Below are positions 2 through 20,582 of a stretch of DNA of 21,630 nucleotides, one piece after another. A program made the position numbers and the translations under genes. The notes beneath the pieces were generated by a model, which ran no database searches, was not told the origin of the DNA, and saw only the letters and a program-made list of their open reading frames with translations. Source of the DNA: Histomonas meleagridis 2922-C6/04-290x (lineage: Eukaryota > Protista > Parabasalia); NCBI GenBank assembly GCA_020184695.1, contig JAANOX010000065.1, positions 1-21,630 on the forward strand, given 5' to 3'. Numbering within the stretch: the first letter of the stretch is position 1; every line of letters begins with the position of its first letter.

Positions 2-712
2 AATAATCCTGACAATTTTACAATATTATTCCAGGGGTTTGGTAATATAGATAGGCGTGCATTTTATAATATAATATTGAATCATATTCATAATCATATA
101 GGTGGGGTTAGGATTGGACAACATTATTTTATAAATTATCTACGTGAAGGTTGGGTTTGGTCTCAAAAACCATTATTACCTAATGTATATCAAGACATGA
201 TAAATACATTAGGTAATGGTCAAGACATCACCCCCGATTATACTAATATTATAGAATTCGAGGGGTCAGATGAAGATAATGCATGGATACCTTATTGGAT
301 CCATTTAGAGGGGTTTGGTATAGAAAGAGCACAAAATGTAGCTCAAAATGGGGCACAATTCTTCCCTTATTTAGTTTCAGAAAATATTCCGTATGTTATC
401 AAACAATATTTACGAAGATTACAAATCTTCGATTCACTATTAAATAGTGAAAATAAACAAAGGGAAGAATTGAATGACTGTTGTTTCATATATGCTTTAA
501 AACAGTCAGGTATCCCAGAAAAAGTGCTCGATAAAATCCGTTGTAGGATTTTAGTCAAATATCATATTGCTTCTAAACTTGATTTAGTTTGTAAAGATAA
601 TTCAATTTATGCTCAAATTCACAAAGTTTATAAATCCATCGATGAAGATGGTAAAACTAGAATTAGACTTATTGTTTATCAAAAACAAGGTCAAACATTG
701 GTAGGTATATAA
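2..712 (+). pseudogene. N-terminal fragment of a Maverick/Polinton protein-primed DNA polymerase (terminal-protein region), truncated at ~700
   Basis: The frame is open from base 2, so it runs off the left edge and the TTG start at 77 is not the real start. It contains QFFPYL...LRRLQIF...NDCCFIYALKQSG, which I recognise as resembling the N-terminal part of trichomonad Maverick polymerases. The last codons (VGI*) come from the unit A leader that begins at 701. Confidence 0.55.
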
Positions 713-715
713 TGC

Positions 716-792
716 GGTCGGGAATGATCACGAGGACCCCAGGGGCCCCGCCCCCGGCGGGGCCCCTGGGGTCCTCGTGATCATTCCCGACC
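716..792. repeat. Perfect 37-bp inverted repeat with 3-nt loop (leader hairpin 1, unit A)
   Basis: 716-752 GGTCGGGAATGATCACGAGGACCCCAGGGGCCCCGCC is the exact reverse complement of 756-792; the loop is CCC. Confidence 0.97.
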
Positions 793-806
793 TTTAGTTT
801 TCACTG

Positions 807-883
807 GGGGGATTGAAGGGGTCTGAGGCCTCCGGAGGGGTCCGAAGGGCACCTCCGGAGGCCTCAGACCCCTTCAATCCCCC
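807..883. repeat. Perfect 32-bp inverted repeat with 13-nt loop (leader hairpin 2, unit A)
   Basis: 807-838 pairs exactly with 852-883; the loop 839-851 is GGTCCGAAGGGCA. Confidence 0.97.
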
Positions 884-934
884 GAGTGTGCTCGCTCCGC
901 TCGCAACAAAAATCAAAATGATTTTTGTGAGCCA

Positions 935-1014
935 TACAATTCGTCTGAAAATTTGAATGCGCATTCAATTTTGAGAGAACGCGAAACTTTTTGATAGGAA
1001 CGATAGCACTTTTA
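935..1014. repeat. 80-bp leader segment with an exact inverted copy at 8850-8929
   Basis: Base-by-base reverse-complement match. Contains the 16-bp palindrome TTGAATGCGCATTCAA (953-968). Confidence 0.95.
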
Positions 1015-1139
1015 GCACCACTTTTCGCATAAACCTATCAAAAACATCACATTACCAACACGAATTGTCCCCGATTATCTTTGGTCGGACATTTATCCTA
1101 TTTAATTTATCTTTGATCGGAAGTTAGTAGTCAAAAAGC

Positions 1140-1171
1140 GACGGTTATTGTTTGGTCTCATCACAACCTTT
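1140..1171 (+). promoter_or_regulatory. Possible Trichomonas-type M3/M5 core promoter of the 113-aa gene
   Basis: GACGGTTA (1140-1147) fits the Myb-bound M3 consensus and CCTTT (1167-1171) fits M5, 11 nt before the ATG. Unit B keeps the M3-like site but not CCTTT. These are short motifs, so a chance match is possible. Confidence 0.35.
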
Positions 1172-1181
1172 ATTTTTATAA

Positions 1182-1523
1182 ATGCTTAAACCTGTGACTA
1201 AAACGTATTTTTGTACTTCCCAAAAAGAAAACCGTTTTCCGCCTGAATTTGTGGATTCTCAAAATCCTAGATATATAGTAGTACAACAATGTAAGTGTAA
1301 ATTTAAGGATTATTTAGTATCTGATGTTTCAATGCATGCTGATTTCATTAAATGTGATCATTATGAAGATTATTTTTGTATTTATACGAATGAAAATAGA
1401 ACTAAATATAAGAAATATGAATATAAAAGTAGAAAACCAAATTTTAAAATATGGTTTAAAGAAATGAATGGTAAAGAAATTGATCCTGAATATTTTATGT
1501 TAGAATTATTATTAATTTATTAA
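1182..1523 (+). CDS. Conserved 113-aa hypothetical protein, possibly a small beta-rich virion vertex (penton-like) protein
   Basis: Intact ORF with a near-identical copy at 14312-14654. Lies directly upstream of the fibre gene. The function is inference only. Confidence 0.7.
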   Translation: MLKPVTKTYFCTSQKENRFPPEFVDSQNPRYIVVQQCKCKFKDYLVSDVSMHADFIKCDHYEDYFCIYTNENRTKYKKYEYKSRKPNFKIWFKEMNGKEIDPEYFMLELLLIY

Positions 1524-1530
1524 ATAAAAA

Positions 1531-1535
1531 TCATT
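1531..1535 (+). promoter_or_regulatory. Trichomonad-type initiator (Inr) TCATT upstream of the fibre ATG; representative of many
   Basis: TCA(T/C)T lies within ~20 nt upstream of ATGs at 1531, 3721, 7100/7105, 16694 and 21241 (+ strand) and at 6359-6363, 8396-8400, 18928-18932 and 20047-20051 (- strand). Confidence 0.65.
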
Positions 1536-1543
1536 TTTTATCA

Positions 1544-3706
1544 ATGTTTAGTATTGAGAATGCTACGAAAGGAATAAAAACTAATGTTATTGCTGCTCCT
1601 GAAATTATTGACCAAGATGACTTACAAAAAGTTTTAGAAAATTATTCTACAAATGATCAAATAACAGAAAAACTTAATACTATAACTTCGATTACAATCC
1701 CACAATTATATTATAATAAATCACAATCAGATGAAAAATATTCTACAAAAAGTCATACTCATAATACAATAAATAATGATTTAACAGTAAATGGAAATGT
1801 ACAAGTTACTTCATTAAATGGTTTTCAATTGTCAACAGCAGAAGGTGGTAAATGGGATACAAAATTATATGTTCCATCTATTATCACATTAAAAGAAGAT
1901 GGTGTTGTAGAAGTTGGACAATATATTGATCTGCATAATAATGCAGATTACGATAAAGATAATACATGGAGAATAACTGCTAATACTAATTCATTAGATT
2001 TTAAATCAAAAACTGGTTCATTATTAAGTTTCGGAAGTAATGGCAATATTCAATGTTCAACTATAAATAATGTAGATACATCTGAAATATCTTTAAATGA
2101 TCATAATCATGATGAGATTTATGCTAAAAAAAATCATGAACATGTAAACTATGCTTCATCAGATCATACTCATAGTTATACTGATTTAAATGATAAACCA
2201 CAGTCATTTCCACCTTCAGATCATACTCATAGTTATAACGATTTAAATGATAAACCTGAAACATTTCCACCTTCAGTTCATACTCATAGTTATAACGATT
2301 TAAATGATAAACCTGAAACATTTCCACCTTCAGTTCATACTCATAGTTATAACGATTTAAATGATAAACCTGAAACATTTCCGCCATCAGAGCATATACA
2401 TACTTTTGATTATGTTAATTTAAAAAAGATTACTATATCTAATGATGATAAATGGCAACTAGCAGCTATTTCACAAGAAGAAAATAAAATAATATTTAGT
2501 ATTTCTCAAGGAGAAGATGATACTCAGCCTCCTGAAATAAAAGATTATTTCATAAATAGAACTGTAGAAAATTTATGTATTAACAAACCAAATTATAGTG
2601 ATATCCGAAATAAACCATCATCATTCCCACCTGAAACTCATACACATACAGAATATGCACTACTAAATCATACACATAATTTTAGTAATTTAACATGTAC
2701 TTCAATTAATGGTTTTGCTATTAATTCTTCTCCTTCTTATAGTAATATAAAGATTGGTGTTCCTTCAGTAGCAGTTATTAAAAATGATGGAGTTTTAGAA
2801 GTAGGACAATATATTGATTTACATCATTCTGATGATTATGGAAAAGATTATACTTATAGAATTCAAGCAACCCCAGAATCATTGAATTTAAAATCAGTAG
2901 ATGATAATAGTACATTTAAATTTTATTCTTTTGGCCAACTTTTTTGTCCTGAAATTAAATGTCCTTTAATAATTATGGATTCACCCACTATGGATGGATC
3001 AATAGAATCAAATGAAGTTTATCGCTATACATGGGAATTTAAAATATCTAATGATCATAAATTATGTTTTCAAGCATTAACACAACGTGGGACCCCTTCA
3101 GATGATCAAGGAGAATCTTCTGTGGGTACACCTGAGGATAGCACCTCCTCTGAAGATTTGGTATGGAACGTTGTGAATACTACATCATATTATATTAATC
3201 ATGTATTTAATCACAATCCTGGCTCAGGTTCAATTCCAATTAATACAACCATTACTCATAATGCTCCTGTTTCAGAAGATTTAACACAATTTCAAATTGG
3301 TTCACCAGTATTTTTAACAGGTAATGTTTTTTCATTAAAACAAAATGGCGTATATACTTCAAATTCATTTACAACAGATTGTATACCATCAGTTAAAACA
3401 ACAGGTACATATAAAGAATATATAGGTATTTGTGTAGCTAAACATGAAAATGGTTATAAAGCTTCAATAGGTGATGTTATTAAAAGAGAAGTAGAAATTT
3501 TACAAGATACTATTGATTTTGCTACACATGGAGATTTTTATTTTAGAGTAAATAATACTGCAGATTATGAAATTGGTGATGTAGTATTATTTGATAATAA
3601 TAAATTATCAGATGATTTAGTAATAACGACTAAAATATTAAATTCAATAGTTGGTAAAGTAACATATAAAATAGATGAATATTTATTAAGTGTATTTAAA
3701 GAATAA
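1544..3706 (+). CDS. Tail-fibre/spike-like protein (720 aa) with HxH shaft repeats
   Basis: Intact ORF. Has a YYNKSQSDEKY motif, 19-aa HTHSYNDLNDKPETFPPS repeats and two internal NGF...VPS...DGV(V/L)EVGQYIDLH...D(N/Y)T(W/Y)RI modules. These motif types are typical of phage fibre proteins. Confidence 0.75.
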   Translation: MFSIENATKGIKTNVIAAPEIIDQDDLQKVLENYSTNDQITEKLNTITSITIPQLYYNKSQSDEKYSTKSHTHNTINNDLTVNGNVQVTSLNGFQLSTAEGGKWDTKLYVPSIITLKEDGVVEVGQYIDLHNNADYDKDNTWRITANTNSLDFKSKTGSLLSFGSNGNIQCSTINNVDTSEISLNDHNHDEIYAKKNHEHVNYASSDHTHSYTDLNDKPQSFPPSDHTHSYNDLNDKPETFPPSVHTHSYNDLNDKPETFPPSVHTHSYNDLNDKPETFPPSEHIHTFDYVNLKKITISNDDKWQLAAISQEENKIIFSISQGEDDTQPPEIKDYFINRTVENLCINKPNYSDIRNKPSSFPPETHTHTEYALLNHTHNFSNLTCTSINGFAINSSPSYSNIKIGVPSVAVIKNDGVLEVGQYIDLHHSDDYGKDYTYRIQATPESLNLKSVDDNSTFKFYSFGQLFCPEIKCPLIIMDSPTMDGSIESNEVYRYTWEFKISNDHKLCFQALTQRGTPSDDQGESSVGTPEDSTSSEDLVWNVVNTTSYYINHVFNHNPGSGSIPINTTITHNAPVSEDLTQFQIGSPVFLTGNVFSLKQNGVYTSNSFTTDCIPSVKTTGTYKEYIGICVAKHENGYKASIGDVIKREVEILQDTIDFATHGDFYFRVNNTADYEIGDVVLFDNNKLSDDLVITTKILNSIVGKVTYKIDEYLLSVFKE
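2165..2392 (+). repeat. Four tandem 57-bp coding repeats (19 aa each) in the fibre gene
   Basis: Units start at 2165, 2222, 2279 and 2336 (CATACTCATAGTTAT...). Confidence 0.97.
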
Positions 3707-3737
3707 AAAAATATTTTATTTCATTTTATATTTTTAT

Positions 3738-4751
3738 ATGGATCCAATTTATAAAAGAAGAAGAGAAATACAAAAATCATTCGAAACATTAGTTAAAAAT
3801 GAATTAAATAATGAAAATTCACAATAAAAAGGTAATTTGAGTCTTGAAAATTTCATTAATTTTTTGAATGAAAAATATAATAAAGAGTTTAATTTTACAC
3901 CTGAATTTAATACTGGTACAAAGCCATTAGTTGAAATATACAACAATTTAGTTAATTATTATATAGATGTGAGCTTAGAAAGAACAACAGATGATCAATT
4001 TGAAAATAAACAATTTGACGATTATAAGCAATTTGAATATAATTTTATCAAACTTTTTATCGAAACTGAAAAAATTACACCTATAAATGGAAAAATTAAA
4101 AGAAAAACAATTCCAGAGCATTATGAATATTATATTAGAACGATTATCAAAAAATTGAATGAGATGTTTGCACGCAAAGTTTTTGAAGCTGAAAAAAAGC
4201 CTATCAAATTTAATGAATATTGTGAAGAATTAAAAAAATATTTATATGGTATAGAAATAATTGATAATAAAATTGGGAACGTATTTACATTCGATTCTGC
4301 TTATAGTAATTATTTGTTACAATATTTTAGTAAATTTCCTTATGACAATATATATAAATATTATAATATATATGAAGATTCTAAGAATTCACCTAATATT
4401 AACACAGGTTTCAAATCTCGTTCGAAAAACAAATATTTATTTGATAACTATATACTTCCATATCATATTGATTATTCAAAATTAGATTCACAATTTAAAC
4501 CTAATATAAATAATTTAGATTATTGTCCTTATAAAAGTTATAAAAAATATCAATTAAAATATATTGGTAATGATGGTGATATCATGAAATTGTATCGGTC
4601 TATATATAAAGGTAATGAAATAGAATTCAATTTATTATTAGGTACAACCAAATTTAAATCAAATTATAATCAAATCATCACTAATGTCGTGAAATTCCCG
4701 AGAACATTAAAGTTCACATATGAAAAAGGAGACATTAACAACTATTATTAA
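3738..4751 (+). pseudogene. 5' half of the integrase gene fused to a DNA polymerase 3' fragment
   Basis: The ATG at 3738 follows an Inr and is in frame with the 3837 ORF across one TAA (3825-3827). YNIYED...NINTGFK...KNKYLF...KKYQLKYIG matches the unit B integrase frame upstream of its first catalytic Asp. From 4570 the sequence switches to polymerase. Confidence 0.75.
4570..4746 (+). repeat. 177-bp copy of the polymerase 3' end (paralogous to 9801-9977)
   Basis: DIMKLYRSIYKGNEIEFNLLLGTTKFK...KFPRTL aligns without gaps to 9801-9977 (offset 5231). Confidence 0.93.
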
Positions 4752-4836
4752 TAATAACTTTACAATTAGCACTAGAACTATTATGTTCAGTATTATTCTT
4801 CCCTACATGTGGTGAGAAATCACTTATTTTAATAAT
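4743..4836 (-). pseudogene. 5' remnant of the ~175-aa gene seen at 18398-18920
   Basis: Near-identical to 18827-18920; the start codon is mutated to ATT and the rest of the gene is deleted. Confidence 0.8.
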
Positions 4837-4870
4837 AAAAAATAATGATTTTAAAAAAAATTTTCTTTAT

Positions 4871-6350
4871 TTAGAAACCACGTTTAGTGTTAATATATTT
4901 ATATAATGATGATTTAACATCTGCAAATTTATTCTTATCTAGTAAAATCTTAGAAACTGCTTGCTTTGAAGCACTTGACCAATAATTTTCTCCTGTATCT
5001 TCTCTAATATATTTCTTAGCTGTTTTCTCATCTTTAATATTTTGACCTGCCAATATCTTATTCATTCTTGTTTTTATAATGTCATTATAAAATTTAGCAG
5101 ATACACTAAGTATTGGAAACATTCCTTTAATCATAGCTAACTTTACAGGAAGTTGTTCATCATAAGCATTATTCTTTTGATAATCTTTAAGATAATCATT
5201 ATAAATTGGCTTAATAACATATCTAGTAAACACTTGATTTGCTGTTCTCCTTTTTGGTTTGTGTGTTTTATAAACATCTCTAACACCTGTATCTTGATAA
5301 TACTTTAAATTAAATTTATCAACAGTATCCATAATTTGTCTACCTTCTGGGGTAGGTTCTACCCTAGGATCATCAAATGGCTTATTATCATCATATGAAA
5401 CTTTTTCTTATATATTTATCCATAAATTCATCGAAATCCTCTATATGTTGACCTATTTGCTCTCAAAAAGTTTTCTATTTTTGTGGACTACCATATATTT
5501 TTGTTGTAAAAATCTTATATATTGACTTTCATAGGGGTCATGTTGTTTAACCGTCCATCCATTTACAAATTTTGCTCTTTTATGTTGATCTGCAACTATA
5601 ACATCTGGAATACCATCCTTATTTATATCTTCTTCAATTGCAGTCCAATGATATCTTGGATCCTTTTTATATCTTTATTTTGTTTTTTTCAACTAATGCT
5701 CTTGCTCCTTCTATTGTTTGAAGCTCTCTAATTTTTAACATCTTTCTTTAAATCAAGAATAAGATGTGCTAATGTATCCATATTTTCATCCAATATAACA
5801 TTACTTCTCCAGTATATTTATATTTATTCTTATCTTCTATAAAATCATACATTTTACCACCAGGAGTTCTAATGTGATATTCAGGAGGTCTTGGAGGTGG
5901 TGGTAAACTTTTGGTATTTGTTCTTCTTTTTTGATATTTTCCGTCCACTTTTTCATAACCCAATGGTGGAATTTCGTTAGACAAAATTGGTTTAATGTCT
6001 TCGATAGTTACTGTTGGCTGCACTGATGAAAAATGATCTTCATATTCTGTTTCTTCCAAAGCATCATCCTTTAGAACTTCTGGATGAAATAATGCTAGTT
6101 CATCAAAAAATGGATGTCCAATATTTTGTAAATACATCAATATATTATCCCATAAAGTAATCTCATCTATATCGGCTGTTTTTAATGTTCGCCATATTAT
6201 TATTTGATTATTGAGTTCATTTATAATAATTTTATCGGGTTGTTGATTTCGCCATTGTCTTAATTTTTTTTTAGCAGCACTCATATCAATACCAAGAACA
6301 TTGAGATAAGTAGCTATTTTATTATCTAAGCCCAATTCTTTATTTGACAT
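4871..6350 (-). pseudogene. Conserved Maverick hypothetical protein (~490 aa), frameshifted; joins ORFs 5769-6350 and 4871-5332
   Basis: The intervening frames read DENMDTLAHLILDLKKDV...DPRYHW...EDINKDGIPDVIVADQHKRAKFVNGWTVK. These match the unit B fragments at 18957-20038. Confidence 0.75.
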
Positions 6351-6382
6351 TTAAAAGAAATGAATTTTAATTTTTCATTTTT

Positions 6383-7077
6383 TTATCCAATTTTTATTTT
6401 TTGATTATTCACGTCGACGATCATTTTTTGATGTCCTGTCAGTTTTTGATAAACTGAATAAATTCGATCTTTAGTATAAGGCAATGGTATTTGAGCTATC
6501 ATATAACTTAATTGTTGTTTAGAGAAATTAGGAAATATAAATATAGTACTTACATTAGCTTTAACTTCAGCAGGTAAAGATTTCCAAAATTGTACAGCGA
6601 AAAATACAGAACATTGAATATGAGCTAATTTAGTAAATAATTGATTAAAATAATTAGTAGGTTTTTTAAATAAAGGACTATTAGCACAATCTTCAAAAAA
6701 TATTATAGTATGTAAAGTTAAATTATTAAAATTATTAATATATAATTTTTGAAATAATTCAGATATTTGATTATCTACTATTTTATTTTCCCAATGATTA
6801 TTTTTAAAATGTAGGATCATTTTTCTAATCCATTTTTAGTAATATAGATTAATATATGATTTCTAGGGATATTATTACTATTTTTAATAATTTCTCTAAT
6901 TATACATTGAGTTTTCCCACTTCTTTGTCTACCTACTGCTATATTTAAAGAATTATAAAGCACATTCACTTCTGGATGAATTTCACTTATTAATTCTTCA
7001 TTTAATTTAGGTTTATTTTTATATAAACAATAATCAATCATATTATCTAAGGCATCAATATTAATATCGTTTTCCAT
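6383..7077 (-). pseudogene. A32/FtsK-like DNA packaging ATPase, copy 1 (frameshift plus internal deletion)
   Basis: Walker A GRQRSGKT, Walker B-like TIIFFED, and a KLAH...AVQ motif in the position of the A32 R/H...Q motifs. It is 108 nt shorter than the 11182-11983 copy in the middle. Confidence 0.85.
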
Positions 7078-7116
7078 AAAATAAAATAATTTTATAAAAT
7101 CATTTCATTATTATTA

Positions 7117-7509
7117 ATGGAAGCTCTTTATACATGTTTTGCACAAGAATTTAAAGATTGTGATTTTAGTGCTATAAATATTAAACCTTCGTTTTCTATT
7201 GTAAAAAATAAAAATGTAATAACATTAACTGTAACTGTGTATAATAAATATCATAATTTATTAAGAAAACAAATTTATAAATTTATAGATGAAAAATATC
7301 ATCCTACTATTAAAAATCTATTACAAAATATAACACCTGAACAATTAGATAAAGCTTATCAAATATCTATAATGGAATTATTAAATCAAATATTTAATGA
7401 TGATTTTAATAAATATAATGCTTATGTAAATAAATTAAATGTTTTACAAAATTATGCTAACTCAATAATGCCTCAAAATCAAAATGAACAATCTCAAAAT
7501 GTTTTATAA
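7117..7509 (+). CDS. Conserved 130-aa hypothetical protein, divergent from the ATPase
   Basis: Intact ORF with a double TCATT upstream; near-identical copies at 10737-11138 and 20583-20971. Confidence 0.75.
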   Translation: MEALYTCFAQEFKDCDFSAINIKPSFSIVKNKNVITLTVTVYNKYHNLLRKQIYKFIDEKYHPTIKNLLQNITPEQLDKAYQISIMELLNQIFNDDFNKYNAYVNKLNVLQNYANSIMPQNQNEQSQNVL

Positions 7510-8165
7510 ATAAAAACTTAATGTCATTAATATTTTTTAACGTTCGAAAGGTGACACATTTGAATGAATAAATGTATAATGATTTTTATGTAATTTTTTA
7601 TGGACAGGGGATCAGTGTTAAAAAAATGAATTGATTTTTATCGTATTTTCCCACTTTTGAATTAACGATAGATTCAATTTTTACAGTTATGTACTAACTT
7701 AAGATATAAATTAATTCATCGAGATCATGGAAACGATCAGTAAACTATTTAAACAAAAAATATTTGATAGTACAGTCTTTATTCAGGTTAAAAAGTCATT
7801 GTGATCAAAACTCTCAGAAAACAACATTATCGCTATTCAATTTTATGATCGTATATTTTGACAAAAACTATGATCGTAACTTTGAATCTTACAGTCATTT
7901 TGGCATTTTTTTTCTTTAACGTTCATCTATCGTACTATTCAAAAATTTTATCACAAATTATTGAAATAAATTGAATGGTTAACATCACTTCACTATTTAA
8001 ATGTTGTCTAGATTACGAGTGGGGTGTGAAATTGAATAGTTTACTAAGGAGTATACCCTGATTGAATAGTTTATTGATCGGTATTTTTCGGATGAAAATG
8101 AAGATGCAAAGATCAAACTCATTTTTTAGACACAAAACAATGAAAAAAAATGATGTTGGAGTCGT

Positions 8166-8390
8166 TTACTCAATGTATTGAAGGATTCCTAATACTTCAT
8201 CAAATTTGTCCTTCATGATTAGGTCAATTAAGTAATCTTTGATCAGATCACGGTAATTGGTAAGGCAATTTGAGGGTTCCGCCGTGATCGACCCTTCCTC
8301 CCACAGCAACACGAAGTAGAGGACTTCGTCGTCGCCTTCCTTACGGAAGTAGTGGTCAAGGATGCATTGGACCGGGTACTCTTGTTCCAT
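8166..8390 (-). CDS. Standalone chromodomain-like protein (74 aa)
   Basis: MEQEYPVQCILDH...YFVLLW...TAEPSNCL follows the chromodomain pattern (EY.V..ILD...L+.W...T.EP..NL). The ATG at 8390 has a TCATT Inr just upstream. GC is much higher than in neighbouring genes. Confidence 0.65.
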   Translation of the reverse strand: MEQEYPVQCILDHYFRKEGDDEVLYFVLLWEEGSITAEPSNCLTNYRDLIKDYLIDLIMKDKFDEVLGILQYIE

Positions 8391-8528
8391 CGTCAAATGA
8401 ATTTGGGGTACCCTAATATAAACTATTCAAATATAATGATTTATTTAAAACTATTATGATGTTTTTTGAATCATTTCAAGTTCATTTGGTATATGTTAAT
8501 ATGATTTTTTAAAATAATTACTTTTTAT

Positions 8529-8849
8529 TTAATAACCATCAGGAATACCATTAGCATAATATTTCAATCCATTATGTAAATTTAATGTGAAATAAGTATC
8601 ACGACAAATGAATAATTGAGGGGGAGGTGGATGATTTCCAGCATCATCAACATTATAATAAGTATCGTTAGCTTGAGTATATATAGGTTGTTCCTTAATT
8701 TGTATCGGGATGTTTTGACCGTTAGAGTCTAAGCCGTCGAATACGTAACCACCACGCGAACGTTCACATTGTATATTAAGCATAAAAGAAGTAGCATCAC
8801 TTAATGTATTATTATATCTTGTACCATTTGAAGCATTCCTATCCATAGT
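8529..8849 (-). pseudogene. 3' fragment of a conserved Maverick gene, probably the major capsid protein
   Basis: YNNTLSD...QCERSRGGYVFDGLDS...NDTYY...HPPPPQLFICRDTYF. A homologous end sits at 21555-21630. The first residues of the listed ORF (8850-8873) come from the inverted 80-bp insert. The capsid assignment is from recollection and is unverified. Confidence 0.45.
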
Positions 8850-8929
8850 TAAAAGTGCTATCGTTCCTATCAAAAAGTTTCGCGTTCTCTCAAAATTGAA
8901 TGCGCATTCAAATTTTCAGACGAATTGTA
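8850..8929 (-). repeat. Inverted copy of 935-1014 at the junction between the capsid-like and polymerase fragments
   Basis: Exact 80-bp reverse complement. Confidence 0.95.
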
Positions 8930-9985
8930 GAAATTAAAATTACAAAAGTTAGCAAACATTATCCCTTCCCTCTTATAGTTCAATAGATAAATGGTTTAAA
9001 CCTTAATGACGACAATAACATAAGTGAAGAAAATCCCGTCACTATGGTCGTCGACAATATAGCCTTGGAAGATCTTATAGTATATCAAAATATACGATTC
9101 CAAATAGTACGAGGCTATTATTGGGATGAGGGTTATGATCCCACCATTCAAAATGTAATCAAAGAAATATTCCAAAAACGGGTGGAATATAAACGACAAA
9201 ATAACCCTCTCCAACTAATATATAAATTAATTATGAATAGTTGTTACGGCAAAACAATTGAAAAGCCGATCAACAAAGAATGGAAGTATTTAAAGAAAGG
9301 CGATAGAGCTGATAACTACGCCTCTAAAAATCACTTTCGAATAATAGAAAGAATTCTGATTAATGATCCAAATATAGAATCATTTAATATAAAACGACCT
9401 ATAGATAAGCATTTTAACTTATCGTTGTTAGGCGTTCAAATATTAAGCATGTCAAAGAGAATCATGAACGAAGTGATGTGCTTAGCATATGACATTGGCT
9501 GTAAAATTCCTTATCAAGATACAAACTCAATGCAAATAGTAAAATCGGATTTACCTAAATTAGAAACAGCCTTCGAGGCTAAATATAATAGAAAACTAAT
9601 AGGTAATAATTTAGGGCAATTCCATTCCGTTTTTACTAGTGATGATGGTAGAAGCGATGTCAACTGCGCAGTTGAAAGCTACTTCATCATGAAGAAAACC
9701 TATATCGATAAACTATTCTATAATGATTATGGTATAGGTTATATGTCTAGGGCAAAAGGTATACCTACCGATACTAGATATATACATGCAAATCTTGATT
9801 ATGATGATGATATCATGAAATTGTATCGTTCTTTATATGAAGGTAATGAAATAGAATTTAATTTATTATTAGGTACAACCAAATTTAAATTAAATCCTAA
9901 TCAAACTATCACTAATGTCGAAAAGTTCCCGAGAACGTTATAGACCACATATGGAAAAGGAGACGTTAACAACTATTTTAAATGA
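8927..9985 (+). pseudogene. polB: C-terminal fragment of a protein-primed family B DNA polymerase
   Basis: Motif B KLIMNSCYGK (9224-9253); motif C reads YQDTNS (9512-9529) instead of YxDTDS; GQFHS and KKTY follow. The frame extends upstream to VEIKITKVSKHYPFPL across a TAG (8984), and downstream past a TAG (9941) to a TGA at 9985. Motif A and the exonuclease domain are absent. Confidence 0.92.
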
Positions 9986-10303
9986 GTAAAAAGTGCAATC
10001 GTTATTTTGTATCGTTCTTATGAATTTTTTTGTTTTGAATGTACAGTTAGATCGTCATTCAAAAAGTGAAAAGTGCTAAAATACTTAACGGTTTTTGAGC
10101 GTAACTTTGAAAATGAATGGGATGTATTTTATATCTCACAAAGTCGGCCCACGAACGGTTATATCAAATTTCTCAAGTATTGAAATCACTGAACTGAATA
10201 ACATGCAAAGGAACTATTTCTCTTATCTCTTTCTCCTTTAAATAGTTGGGAATTAACTGAAAACCTAACTAGATGTAAAAACGCCGTAGCCTTCTATATA
10301 GTT

Positions 10304-10603
10304 ATGCTTAAAGATGGTAGTCAAGGTGAAGGCCTTACCACAACTGATAGGACTAATTTAAATGAAATACGGGCCATCAAGAAGTGTATCGATCGCCTCT
10401 GGAGCAACCTAAGCCGAGATTCTAAAGAGAATGTATTTTCTTATATGGATGCAAATAGGCTAGAATTCGGTTTAGGTTCCGACTATGTCTTCAAACTAAT
10501 GAGCAAGGATAGACAAGTCGAAAAGTTTCCTGCAGTACCCTCTGAGAAATTAAGGCAATGCTTCATTGATTCTGATCAAGAAGAATTAATGCCTCCGTTT
10601 TAA
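10304..10603 (+). CDS. Hypothetical protein, possibly part of a longer broken gene (~10203-10681)
   Basis: GC-richer coding-like sequence. The frame is open upstream to 10202, with an out-of-frame ATG at 10203. It continues in frame after the TAA for 25 codons to 10681. No recognisable family. Confidence 0.45.
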   Translation: MLKDGSQGEGLTTTDRTNLNEIRAIKKCIDRLWSNLSRDSKENVFSYMDANRLEFGLGSDYVFKLMSKDRQVEKFPAVPSEKLRQCFIDSDQEELMPPF

Positions 10604-10736
10604 ATGTCCCCAAGACCGAAAGAGGATGAAGAAAAAACTAGAAGACGTCCGCCACTCTCAAGCAAATGCCCTAAAAAGTAATGAGCTAGAATAGCTCCTC
10701 AGTCATTAATAAAAAATGACTTGACCAATTTTTTTT

Positions 10737-11138
10737 TTATTGATAATTATTTTCATTTTGAGTGTTTTCTTCTTGAGTTTGTTGAGTTAATATATTAGCA
10801 TATTGTTGCAATACATTTAATTTACCTGAGTAGGCATTATATTTATTTAAATCATTATTGAATATTTGATTTAATAATTCCATTATAGATATTTGATAAG
10901 CTTTATCTAATTGTTCAGGTGTTATATTTTGTAATAGATTTTTAATAGTAGGATGATATTTTTCATCTATAAATTTATAAATTTGTTTTCTTAATAAATT
11001 ATGATATTTATTATACACAGTTACAGTTAATGTTATTACATTTTTATTTTTTACAATAGAAGACGAAGGTTTAATATTTATAGCACTAAAATCACAATCT
11101 TTAAATTCTTGTGCAAAACATGTATAAAGAGCTTCCAT
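10737..11138 (-). CDS. Second copy of the 130-aa protein (133 aa), inverted relative to unit A
   Basis: Near-identical to 7117-7509. Confidence 0.75.
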   Translation of the reverse strand: MEALYTCFAQEFKDCDFSAINIKPSSSIVKNKNVITLTVTVYNKYHNLLRKQIYKFIDEKYHPTIKNLLQNITPEQLDKAYQISIMELLNQIFNNDLNKYNAYSGKLNVLQQYANILTQQTQEENTQNENNYQ

Positions 11139-11181
11139 TAATAATAATGAAATGATTTTTATAAAAATTATTTTTATTTTT

Positions 11182-11983
11182 ATGGAAAACGATATTAATA
11201 TTGATGCCTTAGATAATATGATTGATTATTGTTTATATAAAAATAAACCTAAATTAAATGAAGAATTAATAAGTGAAATTCATCCAGAAGTGAATGTGCT
11301 TTATAATTCTTTAAATATAGCAGTAGGTAGACAAAGAAGTGGGAAAACTCAATGTATAATTAGAGAAATTATTAAAATTAGTAATATTAGTCCTAGAACT
11401 CATTTATTAATTTATATTAATAAAAATGGATTAGAAAAATGATCCCTACATTTGAATCATTAAAACCTTTAATAAAGATTACAATTTTATATGTAGCTGA
11501 AAATCAAGCTGAAGATATAGTTAAAGATATATTAAAATGGAAACAATTTTATAATGAAATTAAAAATAATCATTGGGAAAATAAAATAGTAGATAATCAA
11601 ATATCTGAATTATTTCAAAAATTATATATTAATAATTTTAATAATTTAACTTTACATACTATAATATTTTTGAAGATTGTGCTAATAGTCCTTTATTTAA
11701 AAACCTACTAATTATTTTTAATCAATTATTTACTAAATTAGCTCATATTCAATGTTCTGTATTTTTCGCTGTACAATTTTGGAAATCTTTACCTGCTGAA
11801 GTTAAAGCTAATGTAAGTACTATATTTATATTTCCTAATTTCTCTAAACAACAATTAAGTTATATGATTGAACAAATACCATTGCCTTATACTAAAGATC
11901 AAATTTATTCAGTTTATCAAAAATTAACTGGTCATCAAAGAATAATTATTGACGTTAATAATCAAAAAATAAAAATTGAATAA
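11182..11983 (+). pseudogene. A32/FtsK-like packaging ATPase, copy 2 (full length, frameshifted)
   Basis: MENDINID...GRQRSGKT...[shift ~11435-11446]...PTFESLK...TIIF[shift ~11670]EDCAN...KLAHIQC...AVQFWKSL...KIKIE*. Confidence 0.87.
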
Positions 11984-12085
11984 ATAATTTTTTTTTTGAA
12001 ATCATTATTATCTGCGAAGATTCAATGATTATCCTGATTTTATTATTTATTTAAACCCAGAGAAGAAATTTAAATTAGTAATAAT

Positions 12086-12102
12086 ACACACACACACACA
12101 CA
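12086..12102. repeat. (AC)8 microsatellite
   Basis: ACACACACACACACACA, followed by a short GC-rich stem-loop. Confidence 0.9.
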
Positions 12103-12241
12103 GCGCTATGTGAGCTTCGTGCTACGCACTCGCTCCCACCCGCGCTACATAAACTAAAGGATGAACGGCTAAAATCGATTGAATTCTCATAAATCGGTTG
12201 GTTTTGATTGAAAGTAATAAAATATATTTAAATTCATGATG

Positions 12242-12499
12242 ACATTTATATTTAAAATGTGTGAGGCATGAATCCGGCTGAGCTGTTGTTAATCCTATGT
12301 GGATTTTAGTGTTTTGTTGTTAATCCTATGTAGATTTTAGTGTTTGGAGCTTAAAGTTGTTATTAACTGAGGTTTTGAATGTAAAAAGTACCTTTTAATT
12401 TTCAAAGATGTTTTTTTAACCCTTTTTCTAACCCTTTTTTTAACCCTTTACGAAACGGAGAAAATGAGCATTTTTTGAATGATTTAACGCAAAAGTTGA
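12242..12499. repeat. Direct repeat R1 (non-coding)
   Basis: Matches 13206-13449, and its 3' part matches 12521-12710. Contains a duplicated TTGTTAATCCTATGT(G/A)GATTTT and several T(n)AACCC units. Confidence 0.93.
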
Positions 12500-12520
12500 C
12501 GGTTGATATATCAGTAAGAA

Positions 12521-12753
12521 TTTGTTGTTAATCCTATGTAGATTTTAGTGTTTGGAGCTTAAAGTTGTTATTAACTGAGATTTTGAATGTAAAAAGTACC
12601 TTTTAATTTTCAAAGATGTTTTTTTAACCCTTTTTTTAACCCTTTTTTTAACCCTTTACGAAACGGAGAAAATGAGCATTTTTTGAATGATTTAACGCAA
12701 AAGTTGAATGACAAAAAAATAAATTATTTTTAAACGAAACCGTAAAGTTTTTT
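12521..12753. repeat. Direct repeat R2 (5'-truncated), overlapping the HNH stop codon
   Basis: Matches 12313-12499 and continues to match R3 through TTTAAACGAAACCGTAAAGTTTTTT. Confidence 0.93.
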
Positions 12754-13203
12754 AAATTTTGAATAATAAAGTGCAAAACTTGAATTATTAGTATCTCTGC
12801 AATAAACATGAGCAGAACCGCGCTTATCATAACAGATTGTTAATTTTCTGAATTTAATACCGTTCCAAAAGTAAAACGCATCTGTTTTATCATCATAATA
12901 ATAATCTTCTAATTGATGATTGCCATACTTATTAACTTCAATTGAATCCTCGTTGATTTCGTCAAAGAATTCAAAGTCTTTTCCTTTACCTGAACTATTA
13001 TTTTTTAGATTTTCTGACTGATAAACCCGGAGATTTGAAACGTGATTGTTGGAACGGTTGTGATCTATGTGATCGATAAATGGCTTGTTTTCTGGATTTG
13101 GAATAAATTGTAACGCAATGATACGATGTTTAAGATATAATTTTCTGTTTAATTTACATGCAATATAACCGGTAGTTTTAATTGAAAATTCTTTAATGAC
13201 ACC
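12730..13203 (-). pseudogene. HNH endonuclease (HNH_3/phage homing-endonuclease type), 157-aa open frame lacking its start; not in the ORF track
   Basis: Manual translation: GVIKEFSIKTTGYIACKLNRKLYLKHRIIALQFIPNPENKPFIDHIDHNRSNNHVSNLRVYQSENLKNNSSGKG...YYSKFKKLYGFV*. It is preceded by ATG-TGA at 13209-13204. Confidence 0.88.
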
Positions 13204-13205
13204 TC

Positions 13206-13495
13206 ACATTTATATTTAAAATGTGTGAGGCATGAATCCGGCTGAGTTGTTGTTAATACTATGTGGATTTTAGTGTTTTGTTGTTAATCCTATGTGGATT
13301 TTGTTTGAACTTAAAGTTGTTATTAACTAAGATTTTGAACTCAAAAAGTACCTTTTAATTTTCAAAGATGTTTTTCTAACCCTTTTTTTGAACCCTCAAC
13401 GAAACGGAGAAAATGAGCATTTTTTGAAGGATTTAACGCAAAAGTTGAATGACAAAAAAATAAATTATTTTTAAACGAAACCGTAAAGTTTTTTT
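13206..13495. repeat. Direct repeat R3
   Basis: Matches R1 from its first base (ACATTTATATTTAAAATGTGTGAGG) and R2 to its last base. Confidence 0.93.
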
Positions 13496-13845
13496 GATTG
13501 TAGAAAATAAACTTTTTTAACGGTTTTCGAAATAAAATTTTAACGGTTTTCTGTTTGATTATTGGGATAGATTAACGGACGTCGAAAATGACGGTTGATG
13601 AATTTTAACGGTCGAGTGATTGTTGTAAAATGTGTTGTGAAATATATTCGAATAGATAAAGAAAAATATCTACGATGAATGGCAAATGTAAAAATTTTTG
13701 AATTGACATTGAATTTAGTGGCAAAACGATTAATAATTGAATGAGTACTGAAAAATTGGCGGGCAAAATGATTTGAATGAGTTCTGAAAAAGTTAATTTT
13801 GCGCCTGATGCACTTAAAACGCGTGTTTCAGTAGGTATATAATGC

Positions 13846-13922
13846 GGTCGGGAATGATCACGAGGTCCCTAGAGGCCCCGCCCTCGGCGGGGGCCCTAGG
13901 GACCTCGTGATCATTCCCGACC
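13846..13922. repeat. Leader hairpin 1, unit B (37-bp arms, 2 mismatches, loop CTC)
   Basis: 13846-13882 pairs with 13886-13922. Confidence 0.95.
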
Positions 13923-13933
13923 TTACTTTCACT

Positions 13934-14008
13934 GGGATTTCCGGGGTCTTCGACCCCCGGAGGTGCCCTTCGGACCCCTCCGGAGGTCTCAGACCCCTTC
14001 AATCCCCC
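13934..14008. repeat. Leader hairpin 2, unit B (imperfect arms, inverted loop)
   Basis: The loop 13964-13976 is TGCCCTTCGGACC. The left arm is diverged and holds a local GGGGTC-TTC-GACCCC stem. Confidence 0.9.
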
Positions 14009-14311
14009 GAGTGTGCTCGCTCCGCTCGCAACAAAAATCAAAATGATTTTTGTGAGCCATACAATTCGATAGAAAATTTGAATGAGCATTCAATTTTGAG
14101 AGAACGCGAAACTTTTTCATAGGGACGATAGCACTTTTTATGCCACTTTTCGCATAAACCTATCAAAAACCTCGTATAACCAGCGCAAAATGTCCCCGGT
14201 TATGTTTGGCCGGACATTTATCCTATTCAATTTATCTTTGGTCAGAGGTTTGTAGTCAAAAAGCGACGGTTATATTGTTTGGTCGCATGGCAAACTTTAT
14301 TTTTTTCATAA

Positions 14312-14654: not shown

Positions 14655-14676
14655 ATAAAAAAATCATTTTTTATCA

Positions 14677-16712: not shown

Positions 16713-18401
16713 ATGGAAGAACGTGAACCAAAAAAAGAACCTAGCATCAATAAATCTCCATTAGATGAAGTACGACGATTAGCTCTACTTAATGATAAAG
16801 GACCTGAAAAACAGCCTTCTTTTTACGAATTTTTAATGCAAAATTTAAAATTGATTTTTCGTAATCTGAAATTTGATTTATCATTAAATAATTTTTTAAA
16901 ACTAATGGATGAAGCAACAAAATCTGTTAGAAATGGGGTTCCAATATCACCCACATATAGAATTCAATTTAAGTCTATGAAAGAATATTATCAAATCATT
17001 ATTAATAGTTTTTATTATAAATTTTTCAAAAACCCAAATTAATACAAATTTAGATTTTGATGAATTTAAGAAATTAATTAATGATATTATTAAAAAATAT
17101 AATATAGATTATATTGATGGACATATAGGTTTATATCCATTAAATGAATATTATAACTATTATAAATCTATTATTCTAAAATATACACCTTTAAGAAAAT
17201 TACTTCATAAAATATTTGCAAAAGAAGTAGAAAATGATTTTAAAAATGGGAAACCTAAAACTATACAAGAATTTATTAATTTCTTAATTACAAAATTAAC
17301 TAACTCAAATATAACAGAAAATATTCCATTAGATTATGCTTATTCATTATATCTTTTATATTATTTTTATCATTTTAGATATGTAACTCCAAATGATTCT
17401 TACAATATTTATGAAGATAAACAAAATATTAATACAGGTTTTAAAACTTTAAATAAAAATAAATATTTATTTAAAAAATTAAATATACCTTATAGTATTG
17501 ATTATACAAATATAGGTAAAATAAAACCGAATATAAATTATTTTCCTTTCAAATTAAATAAAAAATATCAATTAAAATATATTGGAGGTAATGGAGAATA
17601 TCAAATGGATTTATTTTTTTCACATAGTGATGAATTTAATTATGATTATTGTTATTTATTAGCTGTAGAAGTACAAACTAGATTTTTATTTGGTACTTTC
17701 ACTAATATTAAAATAAACGATAAACATTATAAAAAATCAATCGAAAGTGTAGCTAAAGCTTTATTTGAACTTTATGGTACAGGTTTATTTAATCCTAAAA
17801 TTATTCATTGTGATTCAGAAACAACATTTTTTTATCAAAACCTTTACAATATATTTCAAATCATTTAATTGGTACTAAAATAATTTATGTTAAAAAAATA
17901 ATAATTAAAAATAAATCTTATCCTATACATTCATCTTTAGCTATAATTAATAGAATTTGTAGAACTATTAGAGATATGGCTGATAATATGGGTTTAGAAT
18001 ATATTCAACCTCATGATATGAATAAAATTATACATAATTATAATCATACTTATCATAAAACATTATCTAAATTAAATCATAAAAAAATATCACCATATGA
18101 AGCTAAAATAAAACAAAAATCTTTTGGTTTATCTCTACATAAATTAAATTATAATATTATGAAACAAAAAGGATTTTATTTACCTCCTGGTACAACAGTA
18201 ACAGTTTATAACACAGATCAATTAAAAAAGAGATCAAAAATATTACCAGATATTTATATAGTAGATAATTTTGAAAAAGGTAAATTTAATATTCATAATG
18301 ATAAAGGAATAAAAATGTCAGTACCAAGATATTTATTAAATCCAGTTCCAAATGCAATTATTATACCTTCAAAAGAAAAAGATCCAATGATGTTTTATTA
18401 A
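16713..18401 (+). pseudogene. Retroviral-like (rve) integrase of Maverick type, frameshifted
   Basis: YQMDLFF (first Asp 17608), YCYLLAVEVQTRFLF, IIHCDSE (second Asp 17812), SSLAIINRICRTIRDM, IIHNYNHTYH. A long frame lacking an ATG links ~17030 to 17605. Frameshifts at ~17030, ~17830 and ~17895. Confidence 0.88.
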
Positions 18402-18956: not shown

Positions 18957-20038
18957 TTACTCATCTGCTAATCCATTAGGTGTACCAATTATACTTACTA
19001 CATATTTTTTAACTGCATCTAACATTATTTGTTCATGGTTAGGATCTTCTAACAAATCAGTAACAACTTTTTTACAAGCAGTTGAATAATAACTTTCACC
19101 TGTCTCCAATTTATATTTTTTACCTGCTTCAATATTTGGAATATTACGTTTTTTTAATAGTTCTTCTACTTTAGGAATTACCATTAATTTTGTATAATGC
19201 AGCAGATAATTGAAGTATTGGACAATAACCCCTAATTCTTCCTTGATATTCACTATTACCTTCATATTTATCAACGAAAGTTTTATATGCATCTTTAACA
19301 AGTAAACTTGTAAATACTGCATTTGCTGACCTTCTTCTTGGAGTACTATGTAATTTATAAATATTCATAACACCAGTATCTCTATAATAGTTATCATTAG
19401 CCCTTTTCACTTTTTCCCTAAATTCATCATATTCAGGATTATATTGGACAGTTGGATCATCGAATGGTTTATCATATTTTACTGTTCTTACTTCACTATC
19501 TAGCCATTCATTGAAAGATTTAATCTTCTTTCCATCTGCTCTATGTTGTCTTCTTTTTTTTTAGGATTACCATAATTATTTTTTAAATATTCCATATATG
19601 CTACTTGATAAGGATCTTGTTTTTTGACTGTCCATCCATTAACGAATTTAGCTCTTTTATGTTGATCTCTTATAATAATATCTGGAATTCCATCAGCATT
19701 AACATATTTTTTTTTACTGACCAATGATATCTTGGATCTTTACCATCATTATGTTTGTTAACATATTCCAAAGCACCATTATATGTTTGTGCATCTCTAA
19801 CTTTTCTAACATCTTTCTTTAAATCAAGAATTAGATGTGCTAAAGCTTTCATATTCTCATCAATTAATGTACTATCAGCACCATGATATTTATAATGACT
19901 TAAATCATCATCAAAAATATATTTAGCATCACCCTCTGTAACATATCTTTTAGGTTCTTTTTTAATAATTGGTGGATATATACGTGTACCATCTTTATTT
20001 CGTGGTCTACGTGTTCCATATATCACATCTTGTTGCAT
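18957..20038 (-). pseudogene. Unit B homologue of 4871-6350 (~360 aa), split into four listed ORFs
   Basis: Shared blocks DENM.ALAHLILDLKKDV, DPRYHW, DGIPD..I.DQHKRAKFVNGWTVK, YY.DTGV..+YK.H...RR.AN.VFT and TGE.Y+S.A.K..V. Confidence 0.8.
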
Positions 20039-20071
20039 TAAAAAAAAATGATTTTAAAAAAAAAATTTTTT

Positions 20072-20529
20072 TTATTCAATTTTTATATTTTGATTATTAA
20101 CATCAATAATCATTTTTTTGATGACCAGTTAATTTTTGATAAACTGAATAAATTTGATCTTTAGTATAAGGTAATGGTATTTGTTCAATCATATATCTTA
20201 ATTGTTGTTTAGAGAAATTAGGAAATATAAATATAGTACTTACATTAGCTTTAACTTCAGCAGGTAAAGATTTCCAAAATTGTATTTTTATTAATATAAA
20301 TTAATAAATGAGTTCTAGGACTAATATTACTAATTTTAATAATTTCTCTAATTATACATTGAGTTTTCCCACTTCTTTGTCTACCTACTGCTATATTTAA
20401 AGAATTATAAGGTACATTCACTTCTGGATGAATTTCACTTATTAATTCTTCATTTAATTTAGGTTTATTTTTATATAAACAATAATCAATCATATTATCT
20501 AATGCATCAATATTAATATCGTTTTCCAT
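20072..20529 (-). pseudogene. Packaging ATPase, copy 3, with a ~345-bp internal deletion that removes Walker B
   Basis: Joins ...IYINKN directly to ACAATTTTGGAAATC (QFWKSL region); Walker A is retained. Confidence 0.87.
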
Positions 20530-20582
20530 AAAATAAAAAATAATTTTCATAAAAAAAGCATTCTGTCACTTCATTATTTTTA

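What the first reader, a model, noticed from the sequence alone, without database searches (positions are those of the whole stretch)
839..13976. Flip/flop hairpin loop: the 13-nt loop of leader hairpin 2 is exactly inverted between the two elements
Seen: the loop in A (839-851) is GGTCCGAAGGGCA and the loop in B (13964-13976) is TGCCCTTCGGACC, its perfect reverse complement. All flanking sequence is in the same orientation. Known: flip/flop isomers of hairpin loops mark hairpin-primed replication or terminal resolution (parvovirus ITRs, poxvirus telomeres), whereas Polintons are modelled as protein-primed. Inference: this family may use hairpin transfer or resolution at its end, or undergo recombinational inversion between the arms. 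Either would be unexpected for a pPolB-encoding element.
Basis: partly seen in the sequence, partly recalled or inferred. Interest (0 to 1): 0.88.

Follow-up and report, generated by a model that had tools for sequence, protein, structure and literature searches.

The report
Flipped hairpin loop inside Maverick end
Two copies of a virus-like jumping element (Maverick/Polinton) differ by an exactly reversed 13-base hairpin loop that lies about 135 bases inside the element's end, most likely the trace of one ordinary copying slip between the hairpin's arms rather than a sign of parvovirus-like replication.

Summary
In detail: 839-851 is the exact reverse complement of 13964-13976 (7 informative sites; flanks colinear). 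The parvovirus/poxvirus reading is not supported. The hairpin is not terminal: the element's tip (AGTAGG) lies 134-139 nt further out, a second 37-bp hairpin lies between, and both are colinear in A and B. One template switch that copies loop plus right arm of a B-like parent over the left arm cuts the A/B edit distance from 21 to 5, so it explains A's flipped loop and A's perfect 32-bp arms together; inverting the loop alone leaves 14. Contigs of public runs show that B's orientation is real and occurs with several arm types. No contig phased in A's orientation was visible, but 31-mer contigs cannot phase A-type perfect arms, so the flip/flop ratio stays open and A's orientation rests on this assembly alone. 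The elements are degraded copies of a high-copy Maverick/Polinton family (integrase, ATPase, penton-like gene, pPolB close by). Loop inversions between inverted repeats are a known mutation class. What remains of interest is the pair of conserved hairpins just inside the ends.

The parts
2..699 (+). 5' part of a pPolB gene of another element, interrupted by the insertion of A
   Evidence: blastx to P0027 residues 213-434; contigs of X2-X4 continue the gene differently after 699 (loose ends)
700..715 (+). Left tip of element A (first base G where B has A); 701-715 identical to B
   Evidence: unrelated flanks before 698-700 in contigs
716..792 (.). Hairpin 1 of A: perfect 37-bp arms, 3-nt loop
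   Evidence: two pairs changed on both sides relative to B (736/772, 740/768)
802..888 (.). Hairpin 2 of A: perfect arms 807-838 / 852-883
839..851 (+). Centre of hairpin 2 in A orientation; GAA-capped mini-stem on the + strand
700..1115 (+). Inferred left terminal inverted repeat of A (about 415 nt)
   Evidence: contigs leave the stretch at 1115 in X2, X3, X4 (loose ends); inner boundary inferred
1182..1523 (+). 113-aa single jelly-roll protein, likely the minor capsid (penton) protein
   Evidence: model pLDDT 81; mavirus penton Z 6.8, rmsd 3.3, 107 aligned; unrelated beta-sandwiches score up to 6.6
1544..3706 (+). 720-aa protein with 19-aa repeats, fibre-like (recalled resemblance, untested)
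   Evidence: C-terminal part 55% identical to a gene of L031; no Pfam hit
3837..4751 (+). Rearranged ORF: integrase-like middle part joined to the last ~60 codons of pPolB
   Evidence: 4285-4584 matches 17324-17603 and 4561-4752 matches 9792-9983; blastx
6383..7077 (-). Packaging ATPase-like gene of A, in two frames
   Evidence: Pox_A32 E 0.0095, below cut-off; 62% identical to ATPases of L029 and L031
8529..8849 (-). 3' fragment of a gene that precedes the penton-like gene in relatives; likely major capsid protein (inferred from position)
   Evidence: 50% identical to L003 ORF; no Pfam hit
8850..8929 (-). 80-nt remnant of A's right terminal repeat; the part with the hairpins is missing
   Evidence: 100% complementary to A 935-1014, 92% to B
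8930..9983 (+). 3' part of the interrupted pPolB gene
   Evidence: DNA_pol_B_2 E 6e-09; blastx to P0027 residues 904-1273
13830..13845 (+). Left tip of element B, starting AGTAGG
13846..13922 (.). Hairpin 1 of B, 37-bp arms with two unpaired positions
13930..14013 (.). Hairpin 2 of B, with unequal arms; the left arm holds its own 6-bp mini-hairpin (13943-13957)
13964..13976 (+). Centre of hairpin 2 in B orientation; GAA cap on the - strand
   Evidence: supported by contigs
16981..18401 (+). Retroviral-type integrase gene of B, in two frames
   Evidence: 31-39% identical to ORFs of six related loci; the model of the L031 homologue matches RSV, HIV, PFV and Ty3 integrases, best E 3.6e-06
20036..20565 (-). 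Broken ATPase-like gene of B
21537..21628 (-). 3' end of B's likely major capsid gene; B runs off the window
   Evidence: 81% identical to 8507-8600

Best explanation
The reversed 13 bases are the centre of an internal hairpin in the terminal repeat of a high-copy Maverick/Polinton family, and they were most likely turned round by a single template switch during DNA copying, not by hairpin-primed replication. Shown: the exact inversion; the internal position; A's perfect and B's unequal arms; B's orientation in several other copies. Modelled: a polymerase copying a B-like end left its template at the start of the left arm, copied right arm and loop from the opposite strand, and returned at the right arm; this makes the left arm a mirror of the right arm and reverses the loop in one step. 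Inferred: the family starts replication by protein priming at the AG tip and displaces a single strand, on which these GC-rich hairpins fold, which would favour such switches; the hairpins themselves are probably kept as end signals (origin, packaging or integrase site), a function not tested here.
For: Geometry: hairpin 1 starts 16 nt and the flipped centre 134 (B) or 139 (A) nt inside the tip; the tip is identical at 15 of 15 sites and colinear. Model: edit distance A/B over hairpin 2 is 21; after one switch from B (target 13935-13976, source 13964-14008) it is 5, made of two single-base spacer gaps, one spacer substitution and one arm polymorphism counted on both arms; that polymorphism (13987 T>C) is 27-29% of depth in X1/X2. 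Loop-only inversion leaves 14; the best single switch from A to B leaves 11. Contigs: 11 of the 16 listed X1/X2 pieces run from inside the centre to beyond the right arm; 6 of them have fewer than the 7 differences that A's orientation needs, 2 more reappear as opposite-strand joints on A, 3 are likely B-oriented; one X3 piece joins left flank, B left arm and B centre with no substituted letter. On A as reference three opposite-strand joints appear across hairpin 2, on B none. A is a rare lineage: its letters at 740 and 768 are under 1% of depth. Known mutation class: interstrand switches that cover a loop invert it and can repair the stem at once (PMC8794818, passages); all 59 human-chimpanzee microinversions are flanked by inverted repeats (PMC8755829, abstract). 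End motif as in protein-primed Mavericks (PMC8097293, passages).
Against: Only two copies were read in full. The contig tables are cut (23 of 478 pieces and 14 of 26 loose-end rows; 32 of 2272 pieces, 40 of 70 variant rows) and favour pieces like the reference. Copies with perfect arms, possibly about half of the family (X3 depths 8.3 against 6.6-7.4), cannot be phased at k=31, so many more A-oriented copies may exist. One X1 contig and 2.5-3.9% of depth show a B-type or related arm at the other end of the centre: symmetrised hairpins or further flips, which these data cannot separate. Direction of change rests on parsimony without an outgroup; B could instead be a recombinant of two symmetric hairpins. 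All four runs come from one study and may be the window's own source.
Confidence: 0.68

Rival explanations
1. Recurrent flipping as a replication footprint: during strand-displacement synthesis by pPolB the growing strand often switches between template and displaced strand at these hairpins, so arms are repeatedly equalised and loops flip again and again across the family.
For: Both hairpins show changes on both arms; several arm types occur in contigs, and B-type arm letters appear on the far side of the centre at 2.5-3.9% of depth; A keeps perfect 37- and 32-bp arms although it is internally rearranged.
Against: Every contig that could be phased and was listed is B-oriented or probably so, across different arm types; no opposite-strand joint on B. 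Selection on the stems would also give paired changes.
Confidence: 0.17
2. A's orientation is an assembly or polishing artefact: within a perfect 32-bp palindrome, reads or k-mers placed the wrong way round reversed the centre.
For: No 31- or 33-mer tells the two orientations of A apart; the assembly has uncorrected homopolymer errors (10 of 13 A/B gaps; contigs add bases in B's spacer); no A-phased contig was seen.
Against: Reads longer than about 90 nt are anchored by unique flanks; polishing with reads from B-oriented copies would push towards B, not A; A's region has intact long ORFs. A junction of the A-type arm with that end of the centre exists in X3 (piece 18).
Confidence: 0.1
3. Hairpin transfer or terminal resolution as in parvoviruses and poxviruses: hairpin 2 is the end of a replicating form and flips at each round.
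For: An exact flip exists; hairpin priming has been proposed for endogenous virophages and a PLV with terminal palindromes (10.64898/2026.07.28.741278, passages).
Against: Hairpin 2 is internal, with 134 nt of conserved colinear end outside it; in AAV the two orientations are random and independent (PMC11575299, passages), whereas phased copies here are one-sided; no Rep/HUH hit among 20 ORFs; in that preprint the palindromes adjoin the target-site duplication and go mostly with non-pPolB elements.
Confidence: 0.05

Closest known systems
Hairpin-loop inversions by template-switch mutation (PMC8794818, passages read) and inverted-repeat-flanked microinversions (PMC8755829, abstract read)
   Same: Exact reverse complement of a short centre between inverted repeats, colinear flanks, stem repaired in the same event ('CM + loop inversion' class).
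   Different: Here in the end of a high-copy self-replicating element; the modelled copied tract is at least 42 nt; which polymerase made the switch is unknown. PMC8755829 argues for break repair rather than switching where the repeats are short.
Polinton/Maverick elements (definition in 10.1101/2023.08.22.554363 and PMC8097293, passages read; polymerase anatomy in PMC11071308, abstract and passages)
   Same: Retroviral-type integrase, packaging ATPase-like gene, jelly-roll minor capsid-like gene, terminal repeat of about 400 nt, AG-type tip, pPolB on the same contigs in relatives L029 and L031; the only named eukaryotic source among the 120 listed pPolB relatives is Tritrichomonas musculus (57%).
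   Different: Two long GC-rich hairpins just inside the tip; tip AGTAGG rather than (AGT)2; no protease gene seen; both copies here are broken or incomplete.
Terminal palindromes of endogenous virophages and PLV subtype 4 of Halocafeteria seosinensis (10.64898/2026.07.28.741278, passages read)
   Same: Palindromes inside the terminal repeats of integrated Polinton-like elements; hairpin priming raised as a possibility.
   Different: There one 52-nt palindrome adjoins the target-site duplication, mostly in non-pPolB elements; 'flip' does not occur in that text. Here two hairpins lie 16 and about 100 nt inside the tip.
AAV/parvovirus ITR flip and flop (PMC11575299, passages read); vaccinia flip-flop telomeres (title in a reference list only)
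   Same: Two sequence isomers of a hairpin centre that are reverse complements.
   Different: There the hairpin is the genome end and primer, a nicking site resolves it, and orientation is random; here it is internal and phased copies are one-sided.

Membership tests
Polinton/Maverick | Retroviral-type (rve) integrase | tested here: met
   B 16981-18401 matches integrase ORFs of six loci; model of the L031 homologue hits retroviral and Ty3 integrases, E 3.6e-06, model pTM only 0.34; Pfam and PDB sequence searches were blank
Polinton/Maverick | Protein-primed DNA polymerase B in the element | tested here: inconclusive
   pPolB pieces flank A and about 190 nt lie inside A; relatives L029 and L031 carry pPolB with the same ATPase and integrase; B runs off the window
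Polinton/Maverick | Packaging ATPase | tested here: met
   Walker A-like GRQRSGKT in the ORFs at 11128-11442 and 20257-20565; Pox_A32 E 0.0095, under the curated cut-off
Polinton/Maverick | Minor capsid protein (single jelly roll) | tested here: inconclusive
   jelly-roll model; mavirus penton Z 6.8 and Sputnik chain Z 6.2, but unrelated folds score as high
Polinton/Maverick | Major capsid protein (double jelly roll) | tested here: inconclusive
   only a 3' fragment; 50% to the gene before the penton-like gene in L003; no Pfam hit; not folded
Polinton/Maverick | Terminal inverted repeats of 100-1500 bp | tested here: met
   80-nt inverted remnant at 8850-8929, 100% to A; contigs place the inner boundary near 1115
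Polinton/Maverick | 5'-AG-type end motif | tested here: met
   B starts AGTAGG, one letter from (AGT)2 of PMC8097293; A has G as first base
Polinton/Maverick | 5-8-bp target site duplication | not testable with these tools
   A's right tip is deleted, B's lies outside the window, no genome held
Polinton/Maverick | Adenovirus-like maturation protease | tested here: inconclusive
   no hit among 20 ORFs; elements incomplete
Hairpin-transfer replicon (parvovirus/AAV, poxvirus type) | The flipping hairpin is the end of the genome | tested here: not met
   centre 134-139 nt inside the tip, hairpin 1 and tip colinear outside it; refers to the integrated form
Hairpin-transfer replicon (parvovirus/AAV, poxvirus type) | Both orientations common, random and independent of lineage | tested here: inconclusive
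   listed phased contigs are B-oriented but perfect-arm copies cannot be phased and tables are cut
Hairpin-transfer replicon (parvovirus/AAV, poxvirus type) | Element-encoded nickase or resolvase with a resolution site | tested here: inconclusive
   no Rep/HUH hit in 20 ORFs; an HNH gene lies outside both elements at 12730-13203
Hairpin-transfer replicon (parvovirus/AAV, poxvirus type) | Covalently closed ends or head-to-head intermediates | not testable with these tools
   only contigs were served
Inverted-repeat microinversion / template-switch mutation | Exact reverse complement of a short segment with colinear flanks | tested here: met
Inverted-repeat microinversion / template-switch mutation | Flanked by perfect or near-perfect inverted repeats | tested here: met
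   32 bp in A, 7 perfect bp within a longer imperfect arm in B
Inverted-repeat microinversion / template-switch mutation | Neighbouring differences explained by the same single event | tested here: met
   edit distance 21 to 5 with one switch

The most novel reading that the evidence does not exclude
The twin hairpins are working single-strand signals of the Maverick origin, with their GAA caps normally on the strand whose 3' end is the tip, and the family's repeated arm equalisations and loop flips record frequent template switches by the element's own strand-displacing polymerase. Counting isomers across hundreds of ends, and between the two ends of each copy, would then be a sequence-only readout of how Mavericks replicate.
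Probability: 0.18. Interest if true: 0.62.

Novelty: new member of a known kind. Interest (0 to 1): 0.3.

Why it matters
As it stands it is a clean example of a known mutation (loop inversion with stem repair) in a mobile-element end, and it removes a false lead for hairpin-primed replication. It would matter more if the flips prove recurrent: Maverick replication is modelled, not observed (the papers read call these elements characterised mainly in silico), and a high-copy family with an orientation marker in both ends would let strand-displacement, panhandle repair and hairpin transfer be told apart from reads alone. I found no paper on loop isomers in Polinton/Maverick ends in searches of the open library; subscription papers, including Kapitonov and Jurka 2006, were not available, and supplements were not read.

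Tried and rejected
No genome held, so copies could not be collected from the assembly. Pattern scans for the leader found nothing in viral contigs or prokaryotic genomes. Searches with the penton-like and fibre-like proteins gave no viral loci and three metagenome loci without a leader. 86 loci fetched with pPolB plus those three: none of 89 has a similar repeat or a comparable GC-rich hairpin; most are short or end before the termini, so this is no evidence of absence. Depth ratios as copy numbers: rejected, summed contig depth is inflated by overlap. Variant 795 as a marker of the B subfamily: rejected, the loose ends tie it to another spacer type. Variant rows at 736/772 and 740/768 as proof of paired change: not used, because contigs can be laid on either arm; the pairs are taken from the two assembled copies. 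Missing variant rows at the loop are weak evidence: that table omitted even known differences near contig ends (X3 piece 18). Low depth over the hairpins in X3 and X4 was not interpreted. Atlas look-ups did not complete. Pfam and PDB sequence searches did not name the integrase, capsid or penton candidates. B as consensus artefact: rejected. Paper searches returned nothing; 70 and paper PMC12945077 gave only a primer match; PMC11296320 mentions flip-flop only in a reference title.
Full report
Observation. The 13 bases at 839-851 and 13964-13976 are exact reverse complements and differ at 7 of 13 sites when read directly. The surroundings are colinear: 701-2345 matches 13831-15486 at 90.9%. With the local divergence of about 9%, the naive chance of these 7 substitutions is 1.2e-11. 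The segment is the centre of a long hairpin (802-888 in A), itself a small stem with a GAA triloop on A's + strand and on B's - strand.

Where the hairpin sits. Similarity between A and B starts sharply at 701/13831, and contigs from public runs have unrelated flanks there, so this is the element's tip; B begins AGTAGG. Hairpin 1 (37-bp arms) starts 16 nt inside the tip; the flipped centre of hairpin 2 lies 134 nt (B) or 139 nt (A) inside. The 15 tip bases compared are identical. Contigs leave the sequence at 1115 in three runs, which suggests a terminal repeat of about 415 nt; an 80-nt piece of A's right repeat survives at 8850-8929, 100% complementary to A and 92% to B. A is inserted in a pPolB gene: the pieces on its two sides match residues 213-434 and 904-1273 of one relative and other copies continue the gene past 699.

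What the elements are. B has a two-frame gene whose relatives fold like retroviral integrases. Both have an ATPase-like gene and a 113-aa jelly-roll protein with a middling match to the mavirus penton. Related contigs L029 and L031 carry pPolB with the same ATPase and integrase. The only named eukaryotic source among the 120 listed of 1257 pPolB relatives is Tritrichomonas musculus, so the host is probably a parabasalid-like gut protist (inference). This fits Polinton/Maverick as defined in the passages read from 10.1101/2023.08.22.554363 and PMC8097293, where AG-type end repeats are tied to protein priming. Target-site duplication, protease and a full capsid gene could not be shown. Summed contig depth over the leader is of order 100,000 against 100-600 for single long contigs, so the family is large; depth gives no copy number.

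The arms tell the mechanism. A's arms are perfect for 32 bp, B's for 7, with six differences between B's left and right arm. The right arms of A and B differ at 1 of 37 sites, the left arms at 9 of 32. I tested all single template switches with a symmetric return point. Replacing B's left arm and centre by the reverse complement of its centre and right arm lowers the edit distance to A from 21 to 5; two of the five are single-base spacer gaps, one is a spacer substitution, and two are one arm polymorphism that holds 27-29% of depth in X1 and X2. Reversing the centre alone leaves 14, and the best switch from A to B leaves 11. This is the pattern 'stem repair plus loop inversion' of an interstrand switch in PMC8794818 (passages), which counted 69 loop inversions and 6 with stem repair in rRNA genes. 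The direction is parsimony only; B could also be a recombinant between two symmetric hairpins.

Other copies. Four runs of one study hold the family, all as 31-mer-based contigs; they may be the window's own source. No 31- or 33-mer separates the two orientations of A's hairpin, whereas 86 31-mers do so for B's. Laid on B (23 of 478 pieces listed, longest first, so biased to B-like pieces), 11 of 16 X1/X2 pieces run from within the centre past the right arm. Six have under 7 differences and so must be B-oriented; two more recur as opposite-strand joints on A with the same depths; three are probably B-oriented. Some X1 and X2 pieces are the same copies. Their left sides differ, so B's orientation is not tied to B's left arm. 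One X3 piece joins left flank, B's left arm and B's centre without a substituted letter. B is therefore no consensus artefact, though its spacer has homopolymer errors. On A three opposite-strand joints cross hairpin 2, on B none. Against a simple picture: one X1 contig has a B-type arm next to the other end of the centre, and such arm letters make up 2.5-3.9% of depth on the right arm; these are symmetrised hairpins or further flips. In X3 the A-type junction (depth 8.3) is as deep as the B-type (6.6-7.4), so unphaseable symmetric hairpins may be about half of the family. A's letters at 740 and 768 are under 1% of depth: A is a rare lineage, and its orientation is known only from this assembly.

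Mechanism and rivals. Best (0.68): one or a few template switches in an internal hairpin of a protein-primed element; single-stranded intermediates of strand displacement would favour them (inference from the Polinton model, recalled from Kapitonov and Jurka 2006, not held). Rival 1 (0.17): the same switch is frequent and is a footprint of the element's replication. Rival 2 (0.10): A is mis-assembled inside a perfect palindrome. Rival 3 (0.05): hairpin transfer. In AAV the hairpin is the end and primer and the two orientations are random and independent (PMC11575299, passages); here 134 nt of conserved end lie outside the flipped centre and the phased copies are one-sided.

Are the hairpins functional? 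Probably, but untested. Hairpin 1 keeps pairing through two double changes between A and B, both hairpins fold far better than shuffles (z -4 to -15), and in B all GAA-capped stems found lie on the strand whose 3' end is the tip. Template switching alone can also keep stems perfect (PMC8794818), so paired changes do not prove selection. Palindromes in the ends of endogenous virophages and a PLV are described in 10.64898/2026.07.28.741278 (passages), and three unchecked notes of this scan report hairpins just inside Polinton ends in other genomes; these are leads, not support. None of 89 related loci held a comparable end, but most stop short of the termini.

Verdict. Real inversion, known kind of mutation, in an ordinary though uncharacterised Maverick family; not evidence for hairpin-primed replication. 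Interest 0.3. The open flip/flop count needs raw or long reads.

Noticed in passing
window:2-699 and 8930-9983: Element A is inserted in a pPolB gene of another element; about 1.3 kb of that gene and the outer part of A's right repeat are missing together (residues about 460-900 of the relative P0027).
   Followed up: partly
window:3837-4871: A's integrase region is a patchwork: integrase-like part, then the last ~60 codons of pPolB (88% to 9792-9983), then the middle of the gene that B has at 18513-18956.
   Followed up: partly
window:10737-11987: A third copy of the ATPase plus 130-aa gene module, in the opposite orientation, 93-96% identical to A's and B's.
   Followed up: no
window:12215-13511: A block present two to three times (208-nt tandem copy at 12313-12707, another at 13179-13511) around an HNH endonuclease gene (12730-13203, Pfam HNH_3 E 8.9e-09), directly before B's tip.
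   Followed up: no
window:13943-13957: B's left arm forms its own perfect 6-bp stem whose loop reads GAA on the - strand, so B's hairpin 2 could also fold as a branched structure.
   Followed up: partly
window:888-904 and 14013-14029: A GCTC-rich motif directly follows hairpin 2 and is identical in A and B; it resembles Rep-binding repeats of AAV (recalled, untested). Contigs with other upstream hairpin sequences join here (loose ends at 890).
   Followed up: no
window:2126-2405 and 15267-15575: 57-nt (19-aa) tandem repeats in the fibre-like gene, with different copy numbers in A and B.
   Followed up: no
window:21235-21492: Small GC-richer ORF with a chromodomain-like look (recalled resemblance; no Pfam hit); a weakly related stretch lies inverted at 8346-8390.
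   Followed up: partly
L028-L045: Close relatives of this pPolB, some with ATPase and integrase, sit in contigs filed under bacterial and archaeal gut genomes; likely misbinned protist Maverick DNA.
   Followed up: no
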